Shown: positions 5,428-14,268 of the stretch, in pieces
Position numbering within the stretch: position 1 is the stretch's first letter
Layout of the letters: each line of letters begins with the position of its first letter
From: Gemmatimonadaceae bacterium
GTDB lineage: Bacteria > Gemmatimonadota > Gemmatimonadetes > Gemmatimonadales > Gemmatimonadaceae
Reading direction: 5' to 3'
Assembly (NCBI GenBank): GCA_051859245.1
Contig: JBHYGA010000001.1
Coordinates: forward strand, 832,001-896,000
Length of the DNA stretch: 64,000 nucleotides
The notes under the pieces: generated by a model
What the model was told of the DNA's origin: nothing
Seen by the model: the letters and a program-made list of their open reading frames with translations, nothing else
Databases searched by the model: none
Translations under genes and position numbers: made by a program

Positions 5428-6531
5428 ATGACCGATACGCTGACGCTCCGCCGCACTTCGCTTTTCGACGCCCACGTCTCACTTGGCGCGCGCATCGTGC
5501 CGTTTGCTGGATGGGAGATGCCCGTGCAGTACCCGGCCGGTATTTCTGCCGAGCACAAAGCCGTGCGTGAAGCGTGCGGATTGTTTGATGTGAGTCATAT
5601 GGGTGAGGTGATTGTGAGTGGTCCCGACGCGATGGCGTTCGTGAATCACGTCACCAGCAACGATGTGGCGGCGCTCGCTGTGGGCCAGATCCAGTACAGC
5701 ACCTTGCTGACCGAGCGCGGCACGATCGTTGATGATCTGCTCGTGTATCGATATCCCGATCATCTGTTTCTGGTGATCAACGCCGGCAATCGCGATGCGG
5801 ATATCGCGCATTTGCGCGCGCACATTGGCGCGTTCGATTGCACCATGGAAGACGTGTCGGATTCGTACGCACTGCTGGCGGTGCAGGGGCCCAATGCGCC
5901 GGCGATCGTGCAGCGTTTCACGAGCACACCACTCGGTGAGATGAAGTACTACCGGTTTGCCGACGGCGAAGTGGCCGGCGTGCCGGCGATTATTTCGCGC
6001 ACGGGTTACACCGGTGAGTTGGGTTTTGAACTCTACGTGCCGTGGGAGCAGGCGCGCACTGTGTGGGATGCGCTGATGGCCACGGGCGAGGTCACGCCGT
6101 GCGGACTTGGCGCGCGCGATACGCTGCGTCTTGAAGCCGGCATGGCGTTGTACGGCCATGAACTCAACATTGACACCACACCACTCGAAGCCGGACTCGC
6201 GTGGCTGGTGAAGCTCGGCAAGACCGATTTTCTCGGCAAGGATGTGCTCGTGCATCAGCACACCGATGGGTTGGATCGCAAGCTTGTTGGCTTCACGTTT
6301 GACGAGCGCGCGATTCCGCGCAGCGGGATGCCGGTGTGGTACGGCGACCTCCCGTCAGGCACTGTGTGCAGTGGCACCATGAGTCCCACGCTTGGGATGC
6401 CGATTGGCACCTGTTATTTGCCGGCCGCCGCTGCGGTTGAAGGAACCGTGTTTGCGGTGGACATTCGCGGCAAGCATGTACCGGCGCGCGTGGTGCCACT
6501 GCCATTCTACAAGCGGGCGGGCAAGGCGTGA
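5428..6531 (+). CDS. gcvT: Glycine cleavage system aminomethyltransferase T
   Basis: [44 protein letters not shown]. Confidence 0.97.
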
Positions 6532-8174
6532 GTCGAAGTACCTCGCGTGCGTCGCGCGTAACAGGCGACGGCGTTCCCCTGGGCAGTGTGGCCATTCTGC
6601 TCACCGACGTGGAACCGGCGGTGCGTTTGAACGCCGTGCTCGAAGCACGCGGTGTGCAGGTCACGCTCATCTCGCCACTCGATGATGTGCGCGGCACGCT
6701 GCGTCGCGCGCGTCCCTCGGTGCTGGTGCTCACCGGTGCATTGCTTGACGGTGCGAACGTGGCCCTGGTGCAGGAACAGCTGTGGCACGACGTGAGTGTC
6801 ATGGGACTCACCGATGCGGTCAACGACGAGTTGCTCGACAAGTTGCGCGCGGTGGGCTACGCCGAGCTTGTGTCGAAGCCCGTGGTGGTGGAGGAGCTGG
6901 CCGACAGTGTGCAGCGCCGCCTGGAGCGTCGTGCACTGGCCGATGTCACCGGTCTGGTGGGAGAATCGGAAGCGATTCGCGAAGTGCTCGTGAAAATCGA
7001 ACAGATCGCGCCGGTCACGAGCACCGTGCTCATTGAAGGTGAGAGCGGCACGGGCAAGGAACTCGTGGCGCGTGCGATCCACCGGTTGGGTTCACGTCGC
7101 AGCAAGCCGTTCATTGCGGTGAATGTTGGTGCGTTGCCGGAAACGCTGCTGGAGAGTGAACTCTTTGGCCACGAGAAGGGCTCGTTCACAGGTGCGGCCG
7201 AACGTCGGCTGGGTCGTTTTGAGCTGGCTGACACCGGCACGTTGTTTCTTGATGAGATCGGCGAAGTGCCGAGCAGCACGCAGGTGAAGTTGTTGCGCGT
7301 GCTCGAAGAGCGAGAGGTCACGCGTGTTGGAGGTGGACAGCCGATTGCGGTAGACGTGCGTGTAGTAGCGGCTACGAATCGTCCGCTGCGTGAGCACGTG
7401 GAGGAAGGCGCGTTTCGCGCGGACCTGTACTATCGCTTGAACGTGCTGCGCATTTATCTGCCGCCGCTGCGCGAGCGTCGTGAGGACATTCCGGTGCTGG
7501 TGCGCCGGTTCGTGCGCGAGTTCAGCGCGCTGCACGATCGTCCGTTTCACGGCATCTCGGGCGACGCGCTGGCGCTGCTGGTTTCGTATCCGTGGCCGGG
7601 CAATGTGCGTGAGCTGCGCAACCTTGTGGAGAGCATGGTCGTGCTGGCGCCGGGGCACGAAATCGGCGCGGATGACATTCCGCGGGCGATTCGTGACGCG
7701 GGTGGTCGGCGACTGTTACCGGTGCCCGTTGGCCCTGTGGTGCGCGAGGGTGAACGTGCGCAGGGGCGCGAGCTGGAGTTCATTGTGCGCTCGCTTGTGG
7801 AGCTGAAGTTACAGGTCGAGGAACTTCGTCGTCGAATGGATGTCGAGGTGCGCTCTCCCAGTGTGGGTTGGATGGGCGAAGTGCATCCGGTCGCAGGGCT
7901 GGCTGCGTCTCCGGTAGGTGACGTGTGGGTGGGAAGTGGGGTGATGGGCGGAATTCCGCCGCGTGACCAGGCAACGCCACCGAGCAGCATTTCGGTTGGT
8001 CCGGAAACCACGATGGCGGAAATCGAGCGTCAGGCGATCGAGGCCATGTTGCGTCAAACGGGTGGAAACCGCCGAAAGGCGGCAGATTTGCTCGGGATTG
8101 GGGAGCGGACGCTGTATCGAAAACTCCGGGAATATCAGGGAGACGGCATTCCGCCGGATCTCGACGTCACGTGA
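6528..8174 (+). CDS. Sigma-54-dependent enhancer-binding protein with degenerate receiver domain and Fis-type HTH
   Basis: GESGTGKE, ESELFGHEKGSFTGA, LFLDEIGE, WPGNVRELRN, NRRKAADLLGIGERTLYRKL; GTG start overlaps the gcvT stop. Confidence 0.93.
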   Translation: MSRSTSRASRVTGDGVPLGSVAILLTDVEPAVRLNAVLEARGVQVTLISPLDDVRGTLRRARPSVLVLTGALLDGANVALVQEQLWHDVSVMGLTDAVNDELLDKLRAVGYAELVSKPVVVEELADSVQRRLERRALADVTGLVGESEAIREVLVKIEQIAPVTSTVLIEGESGTGKELVARAIHRLGSRRSKPFIAVNVGALPETLLESELFGHEKGSFTGAAERRLGRFELADTGTLFLDEIGEVPSSTQVKLLRVLEEREVTRVGGGQPIAVDVRVVAATNRPLREHVEEGAFRADLYYRLNVLRIYLPPLRERREDIPVLVRRFVREFSALHDRPFHGISGDALALLVSYPWPGNVRELRNLVESMVVLAPGHEIGADDIPRAIRDAGGRRLLPVPVGPVVREGERAQGRELEFIVRSLVELKLQVEELRRRMDVEVRSPSVGWMGEVHPVAGLAASPVGDVWVGSGVMGGIPPRDQATPPSSISVGPETTMAEIERQAIEAMLRQTGGNRRKAADLLGIGERTLYRKLREYQGDGIPPDLDVT

Positions 8175-8350
8175 GGTTTGGGGGGATACGTCCATGTGTT
8201 ACAAGATCTTGGACGATTCCCACTATTGCTCAAACGTGACTTTCCCCACATATTGGCCCCGTCGTCAAGCGACCCCTGCTGTTTCGCAGATGGTCGTGCC
8301 GGCGGGATTCTTCCTTCGTTCGATATTCGGGGAGCAGACCGCAGGCTTAT

Positions 8351-9352
8351 GTGGACCGCACTCCGGAGACCGATCTGTCCATTCCAGCGAATCTGGGCCT
8401 TCCCTTGACGTCGAGCGGCAATCCCAGCCTTGGGCAGTCGGGCACGATCGCGGGCAGTGTATTGCCGCTTCGTCGGGCAGAGGAGTTGATCGTCACGTTA
8501 CCGGGGGTCCTGAGTGTACGGATCGTGCCGAACGAGACGGGAGCGATCGACGAAGTCCACGTGCTGACCACAGATGCGGTTCCCCCAAAGAACACCGTTC
8601 GCAATATCGAAAGCGCGCTGATGGCGCAGCTCGGGTTGCGGGTGAATCATCGAAAGATTTCGGTCGCGACCACGCTGGACGCGCCTCGGGCGTCGGATCA
8701 GGCGTCGGAGCGGGTGGTCGAACGTTCGGCCGACCGAGTGGCCTCGCGTCAGCCCGAGACCACGTATATGCCGCCTGGCAGCGCGCCGCTGGCGGGAGCG
8801 CCGCTGGCAGGGGCGCCGCTGGCGAGTGCGCCGGTTGGCAGCTCGCCGATGGGCGATGCGCCTCTGCGAGAAGCCCCGGCCATGCGCAACGCACCGATGC
8901 GCGCCGGTTCTCGGCTGTCGGAAGCGACGCAGGCGTTAGCTGCCGCCGAAGGGCGCCGGGTGCTGATCTTCGAGGATGTGGAAGTTCGCCGGTCGCGTTC
9001 CAAGGGTGTGCTGTGCCGCGTGACGCTGAGCCGCGAGCAGTCGCACTACGTGGGCGAGTCGGAAGGACAGGAATCAGAGCGCAGCCGGGTGGAGTTGGCG
9101 GCGCGTGCGGCATTGTCAGCGATTTCACAGGCGGCCTCGGCCTCCGCGGGCGGGGAGCGCTCGGTGGCGCTCGAGGGGGCCAAGCTGATGGACGCGTTCG
9201 ACCGCGAGTTTGTGTTTGTGAGTGTGACCGCTCGCATCGGTCGCGAAATGGTGGTGCTGACCGGGAGCTGCGAGGTACGCGAGAGCGCCGAAACATCGGC
9301 GGTGCTGGCCGTACTGGACGCGACGAATCGTTGGCTGCATTTGGAGCGCTGA
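8351..9352 (+). CDS. Hypothetical two-domain protein with low-complexity linker; C-terminal domain resembles the LeuA-type regulatory (allosteric) fold
   Basis: Coding-like ORF with ordered N-domain (LPGVLSVRIV..IDEVHVLT..VRNIESAL..RKISVA) and C-domain ending TGSCEVRESAETSAVLAVLDATNR; start uncertain. Confidence 0.75.
   Translation: MDRTPETDLSIPANLGLPLTSSGNPSLGQSGTIAGSVLPLRRAEELIVTLPGVLSVRIVPNETGAIDEVHVLTTDAVPPKNTVRNIESALMAQLGLRVNHRKISVATTLDAPRASDQASERVVERSADRVASRQPETTYMPPGSAPLAGAPLAGAPLASAPVGSSPMGDAPLREAPAMRNAPMRAGSRLSEATQALAAAEGRRVLIFEDVEVRRSRSKGVLCRVTLSREQSHYVGESEGQESERSRVELAARAALSAISQAASASAGGERSVALEGAKLMDAFDREFVFVSVTARIGREMVVLTGSCEVRESAETSAVLAVLDATNRWLHLER
8783..8872 (+). repeat. Degenerate 15-bp tandem repeat (about 6 units) encoding APLAG/APLAS/APVGS/SPMGD/APLRE pentapeptides
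   Basis: gcgccgctggcggga gcgccgctggcaggg gcgccgctggcgagt gcgccggttggcagc tcgccgatgggcgat gcgcctctgcgagaa. Confidence 0.8.
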
Positions 9353-9381
9353 TCAGGGACTCGTCTCGTGATCAGCTTTTT
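9348..9381 (+). terminator. Intrinsic terminator overlapping the stop codon of the hypothetical gene
   Basis: GCTGATCA-GGGACTCGTCTCG-TGATCAGC followed by TTTTT. Confidence 0.75.
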
Positions 9382-9430
9382 ATTCCTTCCTTCCCATTTG
9401 TCTAACGACAACCTCAAAAACGTCCCCCGT

Positions 9431-9522
9431 CGCCCAGTAGAGCGGAGCTGAGCGGGCAGGCCATCAGGTAGTTGAGCGGAGCCAACCTAGCACCAGCATG
9501 CGGAGACCATCGGTCCTGCGTG
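9431..9522 (+). ncRNA. Candidate structured leader RNA with two GAGCGGAGC-loop hairpins and a third hairpin
   Basis: CGCCCAG/CTGAGCG stem (one mismatch) around 9438-9447; TAGTTG/CAACCTA stem around AGCGGAGC; CATGCGG-A-GACC-ATC-GGTC-CTGCGTG hairpin; GAGCGGAGC at 9440-9448 and 9474-9482. Confidence 0.5.
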
Positions 9523-9550
9523 ACTACGCATACAGGGAGGTGACGTTGCA

Positions 9551-9622
9551 ATGGAATTCATGGCCCAGCTCGTGAGTGCTATGTGGTCGTTCGTTTTGGC
9601 CGACGCGAAGACCTGGTCTTGA
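9551..9622 (+). CDS. Unannotated 23-aa hydrophobic peptide MEFMAQLVSAMWSFVLADAKTWS
   Basis: ATG preceded by AGGGAGGTGA (9534-9543), a very strong SD in a window where many genes lack one; below the ORF-track length cut-off; directly upstream of the HD-GYP gene. Confidence 0.7.
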   Translation: MEFMAQLVSAMWSFVLADAKTWS

Positions 9623-9666
9623 TCCTGATCTGACGCGGTGGGGGACTCCTTTTCTTAATCATCGAA

Positions 9667-10989
9667 ATGCCGCCGAGAGTACTTGCGTACGTCTACGTAG
9701 TCGCTGCGACAGCCATTATGGCTGCCGCGGCGCTTTGGCGTCGCGATCCCTCGTTGAACTTCGATTATTTGCTTGGCTCTTTGGGGCTTGTCGTCCTTGG
9801 AGCGTACACCGCAGTCGCCAAGTACAAGACTAGCCGGAGTGCAGATGGTGAGGTGTCGTTCATTCCTTACCTAACGGCGATCATGATCTATCCGAATTGG
9901 TCCACAATCGGGTTGATTGGAGTCGCAGTCGGTGCAACCGAGCTGTCGAAGAAGAAACACTTTGTTAAGCGCCTCTTTAACACTTCACAGTTTCTTCTAG
10001 CGTCCTCTACGGCGATGTTTGTCTACCTCGGTTTGGGAGGTGTTCCGCTCGCCGAGGATAGTAGCTTCAAAATGTTCGCGCATACGGGAGGCGTGGTTTC
10101 ATTCCTCCTTGTCAACTCCTTCGCGGTTGCTGCGGTAATCGCGATCGCTGAGAAGAAGAATGTGTTTCGTCTCTTCTTCGACGCGAACCGCTCGTCATTT
10201 CTGTACGATCTGTTTGCTATTCCTGGTGTTTACGGAGTCGCGCGCGCGTTCACCGACTGGAGCTGGTGGGGGTTGCTCGTCACGGTGGCTTTGCTTTATG
10301 GCGTTCGGCTGATGTATCAGGCAAAGTTGCAGCTAGAGAATACCAACAGGGAGCTTCTTGAGCTCTTCGTGCACACCGTTGAATTCCGAGATCCTTACAC
10401 TTCAGGCCACTCGCAGCGAGTGGCTCGGATATCGAAGATCATCGCGCGCGCAATAGGCCTGCCAAATCGAGAAGTGGAACGCATCGGGAAAGCTGCACTG
10501 CTTCACGACGTTGGGAAGATCCACGAGATTTTTGCACCGATTCTTAGCAAACCCGGTAAGCTTACGCCGGAAGAGCGCGCGATCATGGAGTTGCATCCAG
10601 TGAAGTCGGCCGAACTCGTTTCAAAGCTGAGCGACTTCAACAACATCATTGACGACGTTCGGCATCATCACGAGAACTTCGACGGAACTGGGTACCCAGA
10701 CCGGCTCGTTGGGAAGTCCATTCCGCTCGGATCGCGGATCATCATGTTCGCAGATACGATCGATGCGATGACCACCGATCGACCGTACAGAAAGGCACTC
10801 GGCCCTGAGGCGGTTAAGGCCGAGTTGGTTCGGTGCCGGGGGCAGCAGTTTGACCCGGACATTTGTGATGCCCTCCTTGCGAGCAACGACTACCATCTGC
10901 TTTTCGGTGGCGTCGAGGGAGTTTCCGTTCCGTCGCTGACGCAGATCCTTGATCGCGTCCGAAAGTCGCGAACGCCAGCCACAGTGTAG
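9667..10989 (+). CDS. Membrane-bound HD-GYP domain phosphodiesterase (likely c-di-GMP)
   Basis: About 7 hydrophobic segments in the first 220 aa; RDPYTSGHSQRVA, LLHDVGK, HHHENFDGTGYP, ADTIDAMTTDRPYRKAL. Confidence 0.92.
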   Translation: MPPRVLAYVYVVAATAIMAAAALWRRDPSLNFDYLLGSLGLVVLGAYTAVAKYKTSRSADGEVSFIPYLTAIMIYPNWSTIGLIGVAVGATELSKKKHFVKRLFNTSQFLLASSTAMFVYLGLGGVPLAEDSSFKMFAHTGGVVSFLLVNSFAVAAVIAIAEKKNVFRLFFDANRSSFLYDLFAIPGVYGVARAFTDWSWWGLLVTVALLYGVRLMYQAKLQLENTNRELLELFVHTVEFRDPYTSGHSQRVARISKIIARAIGLPNREVERIGKAALLHDVGKIHEIFAPILSKPGKLTPEERAIMELHPVKSAELVSKLSDFNNIIDDVRHHHENFDGTGYPDRLVGKSIPLGSRIIMFADTIDAMTTDRPYRKALGPEAVKAELVRCRGQQFDPDICDALLASNDYHLLFGGVEGVSVPSLTQILDRVRKSRTPATV

Positions 10990-11010
10990 CAACGTTGGTT
11001 CCTCTGAGCA

Positions 11011-14000
11011 CTACTTCTGCGGTCTAGTGCGCAACGATACGGTCGCTGCGTTCGCGATTTCGAGGAGCTCGTGTTGAAGTACATCGAATACGAAGCCGGG
11101 TTGCGAAAGCTCCCTGCGGTCCACTCCGAAGTAGCGGGCGCAAAGCTCACGAGCGAGCTCCAACTTGCCCGACTCGTGAAGCTTCTGCATCACCGAGGCC
11201 GCTAGGAAGTCCTGTCCTGAATACCTACCGTAGGACGTCAGGTAGTGCGTCGCCCGCTCCAACAGAGCCTGGAATGTGGTCGCGTCTGCCACCACGTCTT
11301 CAGCATGAAGACAGAGAGCTGTACAGTATAGGGTCAGCCTCGTTGGCTTCGTCAACCCAGCGGTTGCGAATGCCAGAGCCTCCTGTGACGAAACTAGCTT
11401 CCCGAATGACAGATGTTCGAGTCGAAGGTTAAACAGTCGAACCCAAGTCTCGCCCTCATGCTCCGGAAGCTGTCCGTGCAGAGCAAATGATCTGCCTAAG
11501 TCGATTGCTCGTCCTCGATCGGCTCCTTCGAAGGCTATGACGGTTTTGCGCCACAAAATGTCTAGTAGCCTCGATGAGCTTTCCTGCACTTGTTGAGATT
11601 TCTCCGCTGTGTTTAGGCAGTCCATCGCGCTGACAACGTCACCGCAGACTCGATGCACAAGCGAGGCGTTGTTGAGTAGTCGAAGCCCCGAAAGGGTCTG
11701 CGCATGTAACTCGCGATCCTTGTGAACCGCAACCGCGAGTTTATTGGCTGACTGCAAATCTCCGAAAATTGTGTTGAACTGCATCATTGGCTCGATGACG
11801 TCTTCTTCCTTCACAACACCCGTACGATGCGTCTCGGCCAACATTGAATACGCCCGAAGTCCAATATCTGCCTCGAAGAGATCCGAGGCAGCTGTCAATG
11901 CGACGCGAATGGCACGGATTTGAGTGACGCCATCTCCTTCCGCTCCGGCAGCGATGTCTAATGCTGCGAGTGCGCTCTCCCGACCTGTGCGCTGTAAGTC
12001 TGTGTGTACTGAGGCTTCGATCTGTGACAGTTTCTGCGCAATCGACAGTTGCGTAGCGCCTTCACCATTGCCCAGAAGTTTGTCAGTCGCTCGAGCGACG
12101 AGCCGCCAACTGAAAGCACGTTCTGCAGAAACGACCATTGCATTTAGTATGCTTGTTCGCGCTGAAGCTTCGGAACAGAGATTCAACGCTGACTCCAAAA
12201 ATCTTAGGATGCCGTCGCCCATTCCCGAGTTTGAGAGCCGGTCTGAGTGTTCTAGGCACATGCTCACGAACAAGCTTGCGTCCCCGGATTCCAAAGCAAG
12301 CGATAAGGATCGAAAGGCGTCCTCTACTGAAAATATCGTTCGCAGTCTATTGCTCAGCTGAGTGGCGAGGTCGCGACGGAGCATCTGTAGCTCTGTACTG
12401 GTGAGCTCTGAATGGACAACTCGACGCACTTCGTCGTGACAGGAAATTTCCCCGGCCGCTCCCTCGTGAAGAAGTCCAGCGTTCATCAAGGCTCGAATCG
12501 CCTTGAGGCGATTGGCCAAACCAAACCCAAATGAATCGTCTAGGTCCATTGAGGTGGCTTTTCCGCCGAGGACCGCGGCGACCGCGACCATGAACCTTTC
12601 TTCAGGCTGCAGTCGGCGAATCTGACGAGCAAGAGTCGCCGCGAGAGAGGCGCTCGACCCGCCAGTGAGGCCCGTAACCAGATGTTCGCGGGCTAGTGCG
12701 ATTACGCTCAGCGGAGTGCTGTCGCTGGATACGGCGATGAGAGTGGCCGATTTCGAATCGAGGCGCCGACCTGTCGGCGTAGAAACAAGTGATGCGATCT
12801 CAACACATGCCTTGTGCGACAATTTTTGCAGAAGCACTGTGGTCTGATGACCGTCTTGCGAATCCCCCTCACGTTCTCCAGCCTGATCTTCTCGTTTCGT
12901 AAATACAAAAAGCAGTCGCTCGTGTTGAAATAGATCGAGCATCTCCAGAATGACTTCCGAGGAGTGCACATCCGCTCGCTGCAGATCGTCGATAAGCACT
13001 ATTAGCGGCGTTTCCTCGGCGATCGCAGCTATGAGCTCATACAAGCATTCGTGAAGGGGAGTCTTCGAGTTGGCAAGCCAAGGCGATTCACCTGGGGGAA
13101 GTTCGACTTCTGAGCCTGCGCACTTGCGAAGGACAGTTAACGCCTCTGGAGTGCATCCGAGGGCGCCTGGGAGTCGGAGAAGGCTGCGCACCAAATGCGC
13201 AAGAGTTCCGAACTTCACCGTACTGTCAAAATGAGACACCCTCACCAAACACCGCGCGAACCCAAGTATCATCGCACGACGCGTCACCTCGTACGCCAAC
13301 TCGGTCTTGCCAATGCCCGCCGGGCCGAGCAATCGCACGATGCGCGGTTCGCCTTGCATGGCGGATAGTGTGAGTGCGTCGAGCTTCTGCAATTCGGCAT
13401 CGCGACCAACAAGTCGCGGCGTGGCGGCTTCGTCGTGCGATAAGCGCACGGCGCGTTCGATGCGCTGCTGCGCCTTCTCGACACGACGGCCAAGATCCGT
13501 GCCGCCCACGCCCGTCTCGCGCACGTATGACTCCAGCAACGACGATGCGTTGACTCGACTCCCAAGCATGGCCACCGCTTCGGCCACGATCAACGTGGCG
13601 TCTTCGTTGAAGGGGTCAAACTCCAGCACGGTACGCGCCCAGCGCTCAGCTTCCTCCCACTCACCGCGATCGCGAAGGCGGCGCAACTCCGGCACAAGAA
13701 TGCGACGCACGTCAGCGTGATAGAGCTCGCGCTGCTGCTCCACCCAACGGCGCAGCGCAGAATAGCTCGGCAGCCAACCGGCGAACAGATGACCAAAGGG
13801 CTCCTGACCTTTGAGCACATCACGGTCGAACAACAGTGCCGTTCGATCCAGCGCAAAGCACGGCAGAAACGTGGTGCGCAGCATTCGCACCGACGCGCGG
13901 CTGCTTTCAATCTCCACGCCGAGTTGACGCAGCTTGTACACGTGCTGACGCAGCGAGTGACGCGCCGATGCATCGTCCATGCCTGGCCACACGAGTTCCA

Positions 14001-14268
14001 TCAGGCTCTCGCGGGCGATCACGTGCTCATGCGACATGCCCACCACCACGAGCAGCGAAAACATGCGCTCGGCGCCCGGCGCGATGACGCCACCACCGCC
14101 AATGTGAATCTCCGCCGTGCCGAGCGTGCGAAAGAGCACCTGCCCGCGTTCAAGCGCGGGCAGCGGCAGCGGTTCAGGCGCGTAGAAGGATTCCAGAGGC
14201 ATCTCATCCAGGGCGAGCGCCGAAGCGGTCGAAATCATTGGCTTCTCCAGGTGGCGGGTAGACGTCAT
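11011..14268 (-). CDS. AfsR/SARP-like regulator: winged-helix + BTAD + P-loop ATPase + helical C-terminal region
   Basis: RESLMELVWP..ARHSLRQHVYKLR, VLEFDPFNEDA, LVGRDAEL, GPAGIGKT, LIDDLQRAD; start 14268 or 14238. Confidence 0.8.
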   Translation of the reverse strand: MTSTRHLEKPMISTASALALDEMPLESFYAPEPLPLPALERGQVLFRTLGTAEIHIGGGGVIAPGAERMFSLLVVVGMSHEHVIARESLMELVWPGMDDASARHSLRQHVYKLRQLGVEIESSRASVRMLRTTFLPCFALDRTALLFDRDVLKGQEPFGHLFAGWLPSYSALRRWVEQQRELYHADVRRILVPELRRLRDRGEWEEAERWARTVLEFDPFNEDATLIVAEAVAMLGSRVNASSLLESYVRETGVGGTDLGRRVEKAQQRIERAVRLSHDEAATPRLVGRDAELQKLDALTLSAMQGEPRIVRLLGPAGIGKTELAYEVTRRAMILGFARCLVRVSHFDSTVKFGTLAHLVRSLLRLPGALGCTPEALTVLRKCAGSEVELPPGESPWLANSKTPLHECLYELIAAIAEETPLIVLIDDLQRADVHSSEVILEMLDLFQHERLLFVFTKREDQAGEREGDSQDGHQTTVLLQKLSHKACVEIASLVSTPTGRRLDSKSATLIAVSSDSTPLSVIALAREHLVTGLTGGSSASLAATLARQIRRLQPEERFMVAVAAVLGGKATSMDLDDSFGFGLANRLKAIRALMNAGLLHEGAAGEISCHDEVRRVVHSELTSTELQMLRRDLATQLSNRLRTIFSVEDAFRSLSLALESGDASLFVSMCLEHSDRLSNSGMGDGILRFLESALNLCSEASARTSILNAMVVSAERAFSWRLVARATDKLLGNGEGATQLSIAQKLSQIEASVHTDLQRTGRESALAALDIAAGAEGDGVTQIRAIRVALTAASDLFEADIGLRAYSMLAETHRTGVVKEEDVIEPMMQFNTIFGDLQSANKLAVAVHKDRELHAQTLSGLRLLNNASLVHRVCGDVVSAMDCLNTAEKSQQVQESSSRLLDILWRKTVIAFEGADRGRAIDLGRSFALHGQLPEHEGETWVRLFNLRLEHLSFGKLVSSQEALAFATAGLTKPTRLTLYCTALCLHAEDVVADATTFQALLERATHYLTSYGRYSGQDFLAASVMQKLHESGKLELARELCARYFGVDRRELSQPGFVFDVLQHELLEIANAATVSLRTRPQK

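What the first reader, a model, noticed from the sequence alone, without database searches (positions are those of the whole stretch)
8351..14268. Candidate undescribed peptide-signalling / c-di-GMP module: hypothetical protein, structured leader, micropeptide, membrane HD-GYP and convergent BTAD-ATPase regulator
Seen in sequence: a hypothetical gene ends in a terminator. It is followed by a hairpin-rich leader with repeated GAGCGGAGC loops, a 23-aa peptide ORF with a strong SD and, 44 bp later, a multi-TM HD-GYP gene. An AfsR/SARP-like gene converges on it. Established: HD-GYP proteins degrade c-di-GMP, and small hydrophobic peptides encoded beside membrane sensors are typical of quorum-sensing cassettes (agr, comQXP). 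Inference: the peptide is exported and processed, then sensed by the HD-GYP TM domain, while the upstream protein or leader RNA controls expression. This would be a peptide-to-second-messenger circuit. I recall a similar gene order in some Firmicutes but cannot verify it here.
Basis: partly seen in the sequence, partly recalled or inferred. Interest (0 to 1): 0.85.

Follow-up and report, generated by a model that had tools for sequence, protein, structure and literature searches.

The report
Structured leader RNA enclosing conserved micro-ORF
In front of a membrane-bound c-di-GMP-degrading enzyme gene, a family of soil and freshwater bacteria keeps a folded stretch of messenger RNA that wraps around a tiny, tryptophan-ending peptide gene; it looks like a so far undescribed switch for that enzyme.

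Summary
The window is from a Gemmatimonadaceae genome. The 23-codon ORF (9551-9622), its strong Shine-Dalgarno (SD, ribosome-binding) sequence, the GAGCGGAGC repeats and the MASE9-HD-GYP gene (9667-10989) are all there. A covariance model finds the leader once in 76 of 81 sources; the other 5 contigs end first. All 60 complete small ORFs (15-27 codons) are hydrophobic and end Trp-x-stop or Trp-stop. Third codon positions vary most.

The leader is a structured RNA absent from Rfam. A 12-14 bp long-range helix (P1) joins its 5' end to the bases just after the ORF stop, enclosing the ORF. Two hairpins (P2, P3) covary. An invariant GAGCGGAGCCRACC segment is predicted to mask the SD.

Best reading: a cis-acting translational control unit for the small ORF and HD-GYP gene, with a membrane micropeptide as product. 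The trigger is unknown.

No exporter or processing gene lies nearby, and the peptide does not co-evolve specifically with the transmembrane (TM) domain. Seven-gene synteny is general colinearity, not module evidence. The hypothetical protein has an amino-acid-sensor-like fold and no shown link.

The parts
8351..9352 (+). Hypothetical protein P0001. It has two conserved domains joined by a variable Ala/Pro-rich linker. It is a neighbour of the element and is not shown to belong to it.
   Evidence: ORF. No Pfam or NCBIfam family. 3577 homologues, the named ones all Gemmatimonad. Conserved blocks at residues 38-113 and 202-333. The C-terminal domain model (pLDDT 85.8) matches the LeuA and citramalate synthase regulatory domains.
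9348..9384 (+). Hairpin with a U-tail after the hypothetical gene; terminator-like.
   Evidence: Present in the MFE fold. My scan gives -14.4 kcal/mol with tail UUUUUAUU. Not called by the consensus scanner. A comparable hairpin with U-tail occurs in 14 of 57 loci.
9397..9411 (+). Small hairpin P0 with a conserved YUAACGAC-like sequence, upstream of P1.
   Evidence: Seen by eye in the alignment: UCGUCU...AGACGA in most close loci and UUGUC...GACAA in the window. The MFE fold pairs it. Not quantified.
9422..9433 (+). P1 5' strand, GUCCCCCGUCGC (C-run).
   Evidence: Pairs with 9635-9646 in both the MFE and centroid folds. Cognate duplexes average -29.1 kcal/mol against -22.1 for non-cognate pairs, with 0 of 2000 permutations as good, in 55 elements.
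9432..9457 (+). P2 hairpin (GCCC/GGGC in the window). Its loop holds the first GAGCGGAGC repeat (9440-9448) and its 3' strand lies inside GAGCGGGC (9450-9457).
   Evidence: Cognate against non-cognate energies: -9.34 against -7.88 kcal/mol, 0 of 2000 permutations, 45 distinct elements. The stem is 7-11 bp in distant loci. Only 63.8% of cells pair in the MAFFT register of alignment A3.
9474..9487 (+). Invariant GAGCGGAGCCAACC, the predicted anti-SD segment.
   Evidence: Invariant or nearly invariant columns in A3. RNAalifold pairs it with the SD region. 91% of cells pair, but the core pairs never vary, so covariation cannot test it.
9495..9525 (+). P3 hairpin followed by GACU.
   Evidence: The two stems are 98.4% and 90.9% paired, and 10 of 12 pairs show changes on both sides. 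Cognate halves average -17.25 kcal/mol against -12.26 for non-cognate, with 0 of 2000 permutations.
9535..9543 (+). Shine-Dalgarno sequence GGGAGGUGA of the small ORF.
   Evidence: G[GA]GGU, which ends at window 9541 (two bases before the part's end), ends 7-10 nt before the start codon in 57 of 57 elements. Invariant columns. Most other genes in the window have no SD.
9551..9622 (+). Small ORF of 23 codons, MEFMAQLVSAMWSFVLADAKTWS.
   Evidence: Conserved in 57 complete elements: 55 ATG and 2 GTG starts; Trp penultimate in 55 and last in 2. Codon-position entropy 15.7/12.2/20.0 and pN/pS 0.52. The +1 frame is open in only 4 of 57 elements; the +2 frame stays open in 32 of 57.
9635..9646 (+). 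P1 3' strand, GCGGUGGGGGAC (G-run). It starts 12 nt after the ORF stop and ends 20 nt before the HD-GYP ATG.
   Evidence: The distance from stop to G-run has a median of 15 nt (range 4-26) in 55 elements. The HD-GYP ATG lies a median of 14 nt after the G-run.
9667..10989 (+). MASE9-HD-GYP protein (P0003), a predicted membrane c-di-GMP phosphodiesterase.
   Evidence: Pfam HD_5 at 1.5e-34 and MASE9 at 27.0 bits against a cut-off of 24.3. Motifs visible. Hydrophobic segments. Homologues of the TM domain are all ~440-aa HD-GYP (HD_5/HD) proteins, most also carrying the MASE9 family.
11011..14268 (-). Convergent 1085-aa STAND-type ATPase regulator. A neighbour, not shown to belong to the element.
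   Evidence: AAA_16 at 9.6e-17; Trans_reg_C at 22.3 bits, below its cut-off; no BTAD match. Position is conserved but identity is only 24-56%.

Best explanation
This is a conserved, Rfam-unlisted structured leader RNA of about 225 nt (window 9422-9646). It encloses a translated small ORF and sits directly in front of a MASE9-HD-GYP c-di-GMP phosphodiesterase gene in Gemmatimonadaceae.

Shown:
- A long-range helix P1 pairs the 5' end of the leader with the bases just after the small ORF's stop codon.
- Two internal hairpins, P2 and P3, covary.
- The ORF keeps its SD (Shine-Dalgarno, ribosome-binding) sequence, its start codon, its hydrophobic character and a Trp-x-stop ending, while its nucleotide sequence diverges.

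Inferred mechanism:
1. In the resting fold, the invariant GAGCGGAGCCRACC segment masks the perfect SD of the small ORF. P1 also buries the region where ribosomes would load for the HD-GYP gene, which has no SD of its own.
2. An unknown trigger (a ligand, a protein or a physical cue acting on the conserved GAGCGG-containing junctions) frees the SD.
3. Ribosomes translating to the stop codon, 4-26 nt before the G-run of P1, unwind P1 and so allow HD-GYP translation. This is translational coupling.
4. The released 15-27-aa hydrophobic, Trp-anchored peptide most likely inserts into the membrane. It may act on the MASE9 domain made from the same mRNA.
For: Conservation:
- One covariance-model hit per source in 76 of 81 sources (33.6-126.7 bits). 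Nothing else in the 64-kb window scores better than E = 0.9.
- The 5 sources without a hit end at or just after the hypothetical gene.

Structure:
- P1 cognate against non-cognate duplex energy is -29.1 against -22.1 kcal/mol, with 0 of 2000 permutations as good.
- P1 is present in the window's MFE and centroid folds.
- On alignment A3, 85.8% of cells pair, against 35-48% when the partners are slid. P3 has 10 of 12 pairs changed on both sides.
- P2 and P3 are supported by cognate/non-cognate tests, each with 0 of 2000 permutations.
- The SD is paired in the window's MFE fold and in the RNAalifold consensus.

Coding:
- 57 of 57 complete elements have an SD 7-10 nt before an ATG or GTG.
- Trp is penultimate in 55 and last in 2. 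Stop codons vary (TAA 32, TGA 16, TAG 9). There are 52 distinct peptides, with mean hydropathy +0.95 and 9.0% Trp.
- The third codon position is the most variable, and pN/pS is 0.52.
- Three further complete ORFs (L045, L077, L078) fit the pattern, and 16 ORFs are cut by contig ends with no in-frame stop.

Geometry for coupling:
- Stop to G-run: median 15 nt.
- G-run to HD-GYP ATG: median 14 nt.
- The HD-GYP gene and most genes in the window lack an SD.

Membrane partner idea:
- The MASE9 authors propose ligand binding within the membrane (bioRxiv 10.1101/2021.11.05.467447, passages read).
Against: - No experiment shows that the ORF is translated or that the leader regulates anything.
- The anti-SD pairing rests on invariant bases, so covariation cannot confirm it. 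Its flanking extension failed the cognate test (464 of 2000 permutations).
- The predicted pairing of GCGGGCAGGCC with ORF nucleotides 13-24 is not supported in the 19 divergent elements (552 of 2000).
- The window's leader is no more stable than shuffles (z = -0.69).
- The G-run lies 10-22 nt from the HD-GYP ATG in the 23-codon class and further away in divergent loci, where the HD-GYP start is uncertain.
- The peptide shows no co-evolution with the TM domain beyond that with the catalytic domain (partial r 0.004; n = 23; low power because the TM domain is at 54% divergence).
- pN/pS of 0.52 is only moderate constraint.
- A hydrophobic core of 15 residues is short for a membrane span.
Confidence: 0.45

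Rival explanations
1. The ORF is a pure regulatory leader peptide. It exists only to be translated. Either ribosome pausing at the invariant Trp codon next to the stop (a read-out of charged tRNA-Trp or free Trp) or a nascent-chain arrest sets how long P1 stays open. The released peptide has no function.
For: - The UGG codon is always in frame, at the penultimate (55) or last (2) codon of 57 ORFs, and Trp makes up 9.0% of residues.
- The ORF lies inside a helix-closed leader, with its stop 4-26 nt before the P1 3' strand.
- A second Trp lies 10-12 residues before the C-terminus in many variants (peptide list). From recall, this is the distance of the key Trp in TnaC and SecM.
Against: - Hydrophobicity is kept across 52 distinct peptides, which neither a codon sensor nor a tunnel-arrest motif requires.
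- The final residue and the stop codon vary freely, unlike known termination-arrest peptides (recalled).
- The upstream Trp (position 12) is replaced by M, L, I or S in 8 of 34 distinct coding sequences.
- No terminator/antiterminator pair was found downstream.
- No known link between Trp and HD-GYP enzymes.
Confidence: 0.2
2. The leader is a new riboswitch aptamer. The invariant unpaired GAGCGG-containing junctions bind a small molecule, most plausibly c-di-GMP or its product pGpG given the downstream gene. The small ORF is simply the first cistron.
For: - Sequence is very highly conserved in junctions and loops around covarying helices. From recall, this is the usual signature of aptamers.
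- The element occurs as a single copy, always before the same gene.
- No Rfam family matches it.
Against: - No ligand evidence of any kind.
- No resemblance to the c-di-GMP-I or c-di-GMP-II models: no hit at E up to 10 in the window's leader or E up to 1 in ten other loci.
- Repeated GAGCGG elements fit a protein-binding site equally well.
- Only one gene context, so the ligand cannot be inferred from a regulon.
Confidence: 0.12
3. One reading: the peptide is exported and processed, acts as a quorum-sensing pheromone, and is sensed from outside by the HD-GYP TM domain.
For: - The peptide gene and the membrane HD-GYP gene are adjacent in every locus that reaches them.
- The C-terminal residues 19, 21 and 23 are the most variable, as in pheromone cores (recalled).
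- MASE9 has no known ligand.
Against: - Pfam scans of the neighbours found no exporter, peptidase, AgrB-like or ComQ-like gene.
- Peptides as short as 15 aa cannot hold both a leader and a core.
- No signal peptide or double-glycine motif is seen in the listed peptides.
- No peptide-TM co-evolution.
- MASE9 periplasmic loops are short and poorly conserved according to its describers.
Confidence: 0.06
4. A type I toxin-antitoxin-like locus: a small hydrophobic toxic peptide whose mRNA is kept translationally inert by 5'-3' pairing and SD sequestration.
For: - A small hydrophobic ORF, a long-range 5'-3' helix enclosing it and a sequestered SD.
- These resemble hok and aapA1-type toxin mRNAs (resemblance recalled, not tested).
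Against: - It is single-copy and fixed at one chromosomal position across loci whose hypothetical-protein match is 45-87% identical to the window's, whereas such loci are usually multi-copy and mobile (recalled).
- The promoter scan found no promoter-like site on the opposite strand over the ORF or leader (sigma-70 consensus only).
- P1's 3' strand abuts the HD-GYP start, which points to an operon.
Confidence: 0.06
5. The conservation is at the DNA level. The GAGCGG direct repeats would be a promoter/operator, for example for the neighbouring regulator, and the ORF is a chance open frame.
For: - Direct repeats GAGCGGAGC-N-GAGCGGGC occur at a 10-bp period. They recall SARP heptad repeats (recalled).
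- The +2 frame is also open over the ORF span in 32 of 57 elements, because of high G+C.
Against: - Compensatory changes in P1, P2 and P3 are not expected for protein-binding DNA.
- The ORF keeps its SD, start codon, frame and Trp-x-stop ending in 57 of 57 elements, with the third position most variable.
- No sigma-70-like or sigma-54-like promoter match lies in 9353-9667.
Confidence: 0.03

Closest known systems
Leader RNAs with an embedded short ORF that control the downstream gene (Salmonella mgtA leader with mgtL; trp and tna leaders). Named from recall.
   Same: A structured 5' leader, a short translated ORF inside it, and a position for the ORF's end that should decide which downstream structure forms.
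   Different: No sequence or Rfam relationship. No terminator/antiterminator was found. The ORF product is conserved as a hydrophobic peptide. The regulated gene is a c-di-GMP phosphodiesterase.
Arrest-peptide monitors that open a downstream SD (SecM-secA, MifM-yidC2, TnaC). Named from recall.
   Same: An upstream ORF whose terminating or stalled ribosome would melt a helix in front of the next gene. A conserved Trp lies near the end.
   Different: The peptide is only 15-27 aa, so it never leaves the ribosome tunnel before release. The final residue and the stop codon are variable. No arrest has been shown.
Small membrane proteins that modulate a membrane sensor or enzyme (MgrB-PhoQ, AcrZ-AcrB, KdpF). 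Named from recall.
   Same: A very small hydrophobic protein encoded next to, or with, a multi-TM partner.
   Different: No binding evidence. No specific co-evolution with the TM domain. The partner would be a MASE9-HD-GYP protein, for which no such subunit is described in the searches I ran.
MASE9-HD-GYP proteins (T. maritima TM1467, S. venezuelae HdgA), as described in bioRxiv 10.1101/2021.11.05.467447 (passages read).
   Same: The same domain architecture by Pfam.
   Different: That paper describes no upstream peptide gene or leader RNA in the passages read. The Gemmatimonad TM-domain subfamily found here is narrow: 66 hits, of which the only one named to a taxon is from Gemmatimonadaceae.
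agr and comQXP peptide quorum-sensing cassettes
   Same: A short peptide gene beside a membrane sensor. A Trp near the peptide's C-terminus, as in ComX (recalled).
   Different: No processing or export gene. No histidine kinase. The precursor is far too short.
Type I toxin mRNAs (hok, aapA1). Named from recall.
   Same: 5'-3' long-range pairing around a small hydrophobic ORF with a sequestered SD.
   Different: Single copy, fixed next to one gene. No antisense promoter was found.

Membership tests
HD-GYP c-di-GMP phosphodiesterases | HD_5 / HD domain match | tested here: met
   PF13487 at 1.5e-34 over residues 234-399; PF01966 at 1e-18.
HD-GYP c-di-GMP phosphodiesterases | HD dyad and the HHExxDGxGYP motif intact | tested here: met
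   HDVGK and HHHENFDGTGYP are read directly in the translation. The motif definition is from recall and from the paper read.
HD-GYP c-di-GMP phosphodiesterases | Hydrolysis of c-di-GMP | not testable with these tools
   Needs an enzyme assay.
MASE9 membrane sensor domain | Pfam PF20972 match above the gathering score | tested here: met
   27.0 bits against a cut-off of 24.3, residues 60-179. Most TM-domain homologues also carry PF20972.
SARP / AfsR-type regulators (the convergent gene) | OmpR-type winged-helix DNA-binding domain (Trans_reg_C) | tested here: inconclusive
   22.3 bits, below the cut-off of 26.2; E = 1.4e-4.
SARP / AfsR-type regulators (the convergent gene) | BTAD (bacterial transcriptional activation) domain | tested here: not met
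   No BTAD family is listed at E up to 0.01.
SARP / AfsR-type regulators (the convergent gene) | STAND-type ATPase domain, as in AfsR | tested here: met
   AAA_16 at 9.6e-17, with a weak NB-ARC match.
Peptide quorum-sensing cassettes (agr, comQXP) | A dedicated processing or modifying enzyme (AgrB, ComQ) or exporter encoded beside the precursor | tested here: not met
   By Pfam the neighbours are a sigma-54 activator, the hypothetical protein, the HD-GYP protein, a STAND ATPase, MoxR and BsuPI.
Peptide quorum-sensing cassettes (agr, comQXP) | A precursor with an N-terminal leader plus a C-terminal core | tested here: not met
   The ORFs are 15-27 codons in all.
Known RNA families (Rfam 15, including c-di-GMP-I/II, T-box and leader families) | A covariance-model match | tested here: not met
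   No match at gathering score in the window. Only one chance-level hit at E up to 10 in 9250-9750. No match at E up to 1 in ten further loci.
Ribosome-dependent leader-peptide regulators | A short ORF with its own SD inside a conserved structured leader, upstream of the regulated gene | tested here: met
Ribosome-dependent leader-peptide regulators | Mutually exclusive terminator/antiterminator or SD-masking structures governed by ribosome position | tested here: inconclusive
   The geometry of P1 fits. In divergent loci the strand after the C-run can pair either in P1 or in P2 (seen by eye). No terminator was found and no alternative fold was demonstrated.
Type I toxin-antitoxin systems | A cis- or trans-encoded antisense RNA | tested here: inconclusive
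   No sigma-70-like promoter on the minus strand over the element. The consensus scan may not fit this phylum.
LeuA / citramalate synthase regulatory domain (for the C-terminal domain of P0001) | The two-fold beta-beta-beta-alpha fold | tested here: met
   Model pLDDT 85.8 with elements bbb-a-bbb-a. Foldseek hits to M. tuberculosis LeuA at E = 1.8e-05 (TMq 0.54) and to the LiCMS regulatory domain (TMt 0.59).
LeuA / citramalate synthase regulatory domain (for the C-terminal domain of P0001) | A sequence-family match | tested here: not met
   No Pfam or NCBIfam family.

The most novel reading that the evidence does not exclude
An RNA-to-peptide-to-second-messenger relay. The leader would be a new riboswitch-like sensor whose output is synthesis of a micropeptide, and that peptide would be the intramembrane ligand or subunit that gates the MASE9 domain of the co-translated HD-GYP phosphodiesterase. 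This would give MASE9 its first ligand. It would also be the first c-di-GMP enzyme controlled by a self-encoded micropeptide.
Probability: 0.12. Interest if true: 0.85.

Novelty: new variant of a known kind. Interest (0 to 1): 0.62.

Why it matters
- No ligand or partner is known for MASE9 domains, and only one MASE9 protein has been studied at all. A conserved peptide made from the same mRNA is a concrete, testable candidate.
- The leader is a well-defined structured RNA with strong covariation, absent from Rfam, in a phylum with almost no described regulatory RNAs. My searches found none.
- It is one of few cases where a conserved, probably functional micropeptide gene is physically wrapped inside a regulatory RNA fold. 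This makes it a good model for how RNA structure and small-ORF translation are coupled.
- It carries a perfect SD in a genome region where the other genes examined lack one. That makes it useful for studying translation initiation in Gemmatimonadota.

Tried and rejected
- Rfam: three searches found nothing.
- Sigma-54 promoter: a search with up to 3 mismatches gave no site in 8174-8351 or 9353-9667. The window as a whole had fewer matches than shuffles (122 against a mean of 152). A link to the adjacent sigma-54 activator was dropped.
- Pairing of GCGGGCAGGCC with ORF nucleotides, proposed by RNAalifold: not supported in divergent loci (552 of 2000 permutations). It is kept only as a possible reason for the invariant synonymous sites of codons 5-8.
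- Extension of the anti-SD helix into its flanks: not supported (464 of 2000).
- P0001 as an RNA-binding (dsRBD) protein that might bind the leader:
  - The whole-protein model was poor (pLDDT 58.8) and gave no PDB hit at E up to 0.001.
  - The good C-terminal domain model matches LeuA-type regulatory domains better (TMq 0.5-0.56) than dsRBDs (TMq 0.24). The idea was rejected.
- ESM Atlas for P0001: only Gemmatimonadota hypothetical clusters.
- RiPP idea (the HD enzyme modifying the peptide): PMC12186529 (passages read) concerns an atypical non-HD-GYP enzyme that works with a partner oxygenase. There is no such partner here and the GYP motif is intact. Rejected.
- Peptide-TM co-evolution: no signal.
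- Complex prediction was not run, because the peptide (23 aa; the longest variant is 27 aa) is below the 30 residues the tool asks for. Peptide-receptor modelling stays undone.
- Distribution outside the fetched loci stays unchecked.
- bioRxiv supplements (Figure S5 of the MASE9 preprint) could not be seen.

Full report
**What is in the window.**
- The 23-aa product is MEFMAQLVSAMWSFVLADAKTWS.
- It is preceded by GGGAGGTGA at 9535-9543, a perfect Shine-Dalgarno (SD, ribosome-binding) sequence, and followed 44 nt later by the 440-aa gene.
- Pfam gives the 440-aa protein HD_5 (1.5e-34) and MASE9 (27.0 bits; cut-off 24.3). HDVGK and HHHENFDGTGYP are intact. The N-terminal 217 residues hold at least five hydrophobic segments.
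- The convergent protein has AAA_16 (9.6e-17) and only a sub-threshold Trans_reg_C match, with no BTAD. It is a STAND-type regulator, and 'SARP' is not established.
- GAGCGGAGC occurs at 9440-9448 and 9474-9482, with GAGCGGGC at 9450-9457.
- A hairpin at 9348-9376 followed by UUUUUAUU comes after the hypothetical gene. The consensus scanner did not call it.

**Organism and neighbourhood.** Homologues of the hypothetical protein number 3577 at E up to 0.001 among 8000 scored candidates. All the named ones are Gemmatimonas, Gemmatimonadaceae or Gemmatimonadota. Around the region lie housekeeping genes:
- upstream: an HslU-like ATPase, a carbamoyltransferase, AhpC, gcvT and a sigma-54 activator;
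- downstream: MoxR, BsuPI and ATP synthase subunits.

**Synteny.** An alignment of 23 homologues (A1) retrieved 80 loci from species-representative genomes (245 pattern matches, 124 confirmed relatives, best 80 kept). tblastn with the window's proteins gave:
- the sigma-54 activator upstream in 80 of 80 loci;
- the HD-GYP gene downstream in 52 of 80. The other 28 contigs end less than 1 kb after the hypothetical gene, so none is a counter-example;
- the large regulator and MoxR beyond it wherever the sequence allows.

The regulator is poorly conserved (24-56% identity) compared with the HD-GYP protein (25-72%) and MoxR (71-98%). Because colinearity extends over at least seven genes, and Gemmatimonadota are reported to keep a conserved core region (PMC11237797, abstract passage), synteny alone says little about function.

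**The small ORF is conserved as a coding sequence.** A motif-anchored scan and a covariance model find the leader once in 76 of 81 sources (window plus 80 loci). The five sources without it (L021, L022, L040, L070, L079) end at or within 65 nt of the hypothetical gene.

Of the 76 hits:
- 57 were kept as complete elements, defined as an ORF of 12-40 codons with its stop, at least 45 nt of 3' flank, and a C-run;
- 3 more have complete ORFs (L045, L077, L078);
- 16 are cut by contig ends with no in-frame stop before the end.

In the 57 complete elements:
- length is 15-27 codons (40 have 23);
- starts are ATG in 55 and GTG in 2;
- Trp is penultimate in 55 and last in 2;
- stops are TAA 32, TGA 16 and TAG 9;
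- there are 52 distinct peptides, with 9.0% Trp and mean Kyte-Doolittle hydropathy +0.95.

The SD core ends 7-10 nt before the start in 57 of 57 elements. In the 34 distinct coding sequences of the 23-codon class, entropy summed by codon position is 15.7, 12.2 and 20.0, and pN/pS is 0.52. Over the same span the +1 frame is open in 4 of 57 elements and the +2 frame in 32 of 57. Openness alone is therefore weak evidence. The combination of SD, start codon, frame-locked Trp-x-stop and third-position variability is strong.

Divergent loci carry quite different peptides with the same character, for example MEWLLALLSQWVSWT, MDIVQWLVALANIISWH and MISWTLSWLFSWVSWT.

**The leader is a structured RNA.** Nucleotide alignments show invariant blocks: a C-run, AGCGRAG, GAGCGGG, GAGCGGAGCCRACC, GACU and GGGAGGUGACGC. 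Variable stretches that keep complementarity lie between them.

1. P1. The C-run strand (window 9422-9433) pairs with the G-run strand just after the ORF stop (9635-9646), enclosing the leader and the ORF.
   - P1 is in the window's MFE and centroid folds.
   - Two of the 57 elements lack a run of four or more G and were dropped. In the remaining 55, cognate duplexes average -29.1 kcal/mol against -22.1 for non-cognate pairings, with 0 of 2000 permutations as good.
   - The inner flank alone gives -8.3 against -5.2 (0 of 2000). The outer flank gives -2.2 against -1.65 (20 of 2000).
2. P3 (9495-9525). Its stems are 98.4% and 90.9% paired, with changes on both sides in 10 of 12 pairs. Cognate halves average -17.25 against -12.26 kcal/mol (0 of 2000).
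3. P2. The strand after the C-run pairs with CGGG inside GAGCGGG, and the loop carries the first GAGCGRAG.
   - Energies are -9.34 against -7.88 kcal/mol (0 of 2000).
   - The stem is 7-11 bp in divergent loci but only about 4 bp in the window.
   - In the MAFFT register only 63.8% of cells pair.
4. Whole structure on A3. 85.8% of cells pair, against 35-48% for slid partners, and 0 of 500 shuffles reach any of the five measures.
5. Anti-SD pairing. RNAalifold pairs GAGCGGAGCCAACC with the SD region. 91% of cells pair, but the core never varies, so this pairing is predicted and not proven.

Two further proposed pairings failed the cognate test: the leader with ORF nucleotides (552 of 2000 in the 19 divergent elements) and the anti-SD flanks (464 of 2000). 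The window's leader is not unusually stable (z = -0.69). The evidence for structure is comparative.

**Not a known RNA.** Rfam 15 gives nothing at gathering score in the window. It gives only a chance-level snoRNA hit (E = 5.9) in 9250-9750, and nothing at E up to 1 in ten further loci. Literature searches found no description of such an element:
- 'Gemmatimonadetes riboswitch motif';
- 'HD-GYP leader peptide';
- 'small open reading frame HD-GYP';
- 'Gemmatimonas c-di-GMP';
- 'Gemmatimonas structured noncoding RNA';
- 'Gemmatimonadota leader peptide attenuation'.

I saw only listings and abstract starts for these, except for the passages read.

**How it most likely works.**

Shown: a helix-closed leader, a masked-looking SD, a translated-looking small ORF whose stop lies 4-26 nt (median 15) before the G-run, and an HD-GYP start a median of 14 nt after the G-run. 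Most genes in the window, the HD-GYP gene included, lack an SD, whereas the small ORF has a perfect one.

Inferred: the resting fold blocks initiation at both cistrons. A trigger acting on the conserved GAGCGG-rich junctions frees the small ORF's SD. Ribosomes reaching its stop then unwind P1 and open the HD-GYP start. In divergent loci the strand after the C-run can pair either in an extended P1 or in a long P2 (seen by eye). That hints at a switch but was not tested.

The peptide's conserved hydrophobicity and Trp ending argue that it has a function after release. The describers of MASE9 propose that ligand binding occurs inside the membrane and note an intramembrane hairpin, which makes the co-encoded peptide a natural candidate partner.

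Against a specific partnership: among 23 loci with complete genes, peptide divergence tracks the catalytic domain (partial r 0.32; 4 of 2000 permutations) and not the TM domain (partial r 0.004; 950 of 2000). Power is low, because the TM domain is already at 54% divergence.

**Rivals.**
- A pure leader peptide (Trp-codon or arrest sensor) fits the frame-locked UGG and the geometry. It does not explain the conserved hydrophobicity or the variable last residue and stop codon.
- A riboswitch for c-di-GMP or pGpG is attractive given the downstream gene, but has no direct evidence.
- A type I toxin mRNA shares the architecture, but the locus is single-copy and fixed beside one gene.
- A DNA operator does not explain the compensatory changes.

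**The hypothetical protein.** It is a Gemmatimonadota-specific family with no Pfam or NCBIfam match.
- The N-terminal domain (residues 38-107, pLDDT about 90) is an alpha-beta-beta-alpha-beta unit with only generic fold neighbours.
- The C-terminal domain was modelled from 78 sequences (pLDDT 85.8, pTM 0.80). It is a doubled beta-beta-beta-alpha fold that matches the leucine-binding regulatory domain of M. tuberculosis LeuA (E = 1.8e-05, TMq 0.54) and the isoleucine-binding domain of citramalate synthase.
- It therefore looks like a small-molecule sensor.
- A canonical terminator separates it from the leader in the window but in only 14 of 57 loci, so co-transcription is possible.
- Nothing links it functionally to the leader.

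**Limits.**
- No experiment was done.
- Peptide-receptor modelling was not possible, because the peptide is shorter than the tool's stated minimum.
- E-values from the home-built model are rough.
- The cognate/non-cognate tests treat related genomes as separate observations. This reduces effective sample size but cannot create complementarity.

**Verdict.** It is a new variant of a known kind of system, and of good interest.

Noticed in passing
window 8351-9352 (P0001), with the sigma-54 activator at 6528-8174: The hypothetical protein always follows a sigma-54 activator (80 of 80 loci). Its C-terminal domain has the fold of the amino-acid-binding regulatory domain of LeuA and citramalate synthase. 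It could be a ligand-sensing partner of that activator, whose first ~140 residues match no Pfam family.
   Followed up: partly
window 8780-8870: The linker of P0001 contains a short tandem repeat encoding PLAGAPLAGAPLASAPVGSSPMGDAPL. Linker length and sequence vary widely among homologues.
   Followed up: no
window gene starts, e.g. 3694, 4657, 5428, 9667, 15373: Most genes in the window have no Shine-Dalgarno sequence upstream, and the regions are often pyrimidine-rich. The small ORF has a perfect 9-nt SD. This suggests SD-independent initiation is the norm here and makes the small ORF's SD exceptional.
   Followed up: partly
window 9650-13250: G+C drops to 0.51-0.59 across the HD-GYP gene and most of the convergent regulator gene, against 0.60-0.71 in the flanks. 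The HD-GYP TM domain diverges about twice as fast as its catalytic domain (p-distance 0.54 against 0.27).
   Followed up: no
L067 (CALQGY020000059.1) and L059 (JAIXTI010000052.1): Two loci carrying the full Gemmatimonad gene order and leader are labelled 'Candidatus Kuenenia stuttgartiensis' MAG and 'bacterium'. These are probably a mis-binned contig and an unclassified contig.
   Followed up: no
window 9397-9411 and the equivalent places in the loci: A small hairpin, UCGUCU..AGACGA in most close loci, with a conserved YUAACGAC sequence lies just upstream of P1. It shows wobble-compatible changes. It implies that the transcript starts upstream of it, possibly by read-through from the hypothetical gene.
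   Followed up: no
L042, L043, L047, L049, L062, L071, about 150-250 nt after the G-run: In divergent loci a conserved stretch lies between the leader and the first tblastn-matched part of the HD-GYP gene. If in frame, it would read roughly LKPRPWG. It may be an N-terminal extension of the protein, so the HD-GYP start there is uncertain.
   Followed up: no
window 7963-9405 (+) and 8493-9296 (-): Long ORFs overlap the hypothetical gene in other frames. They have no family match and are most likely high-G+C artefacts.
   Followed up: partly
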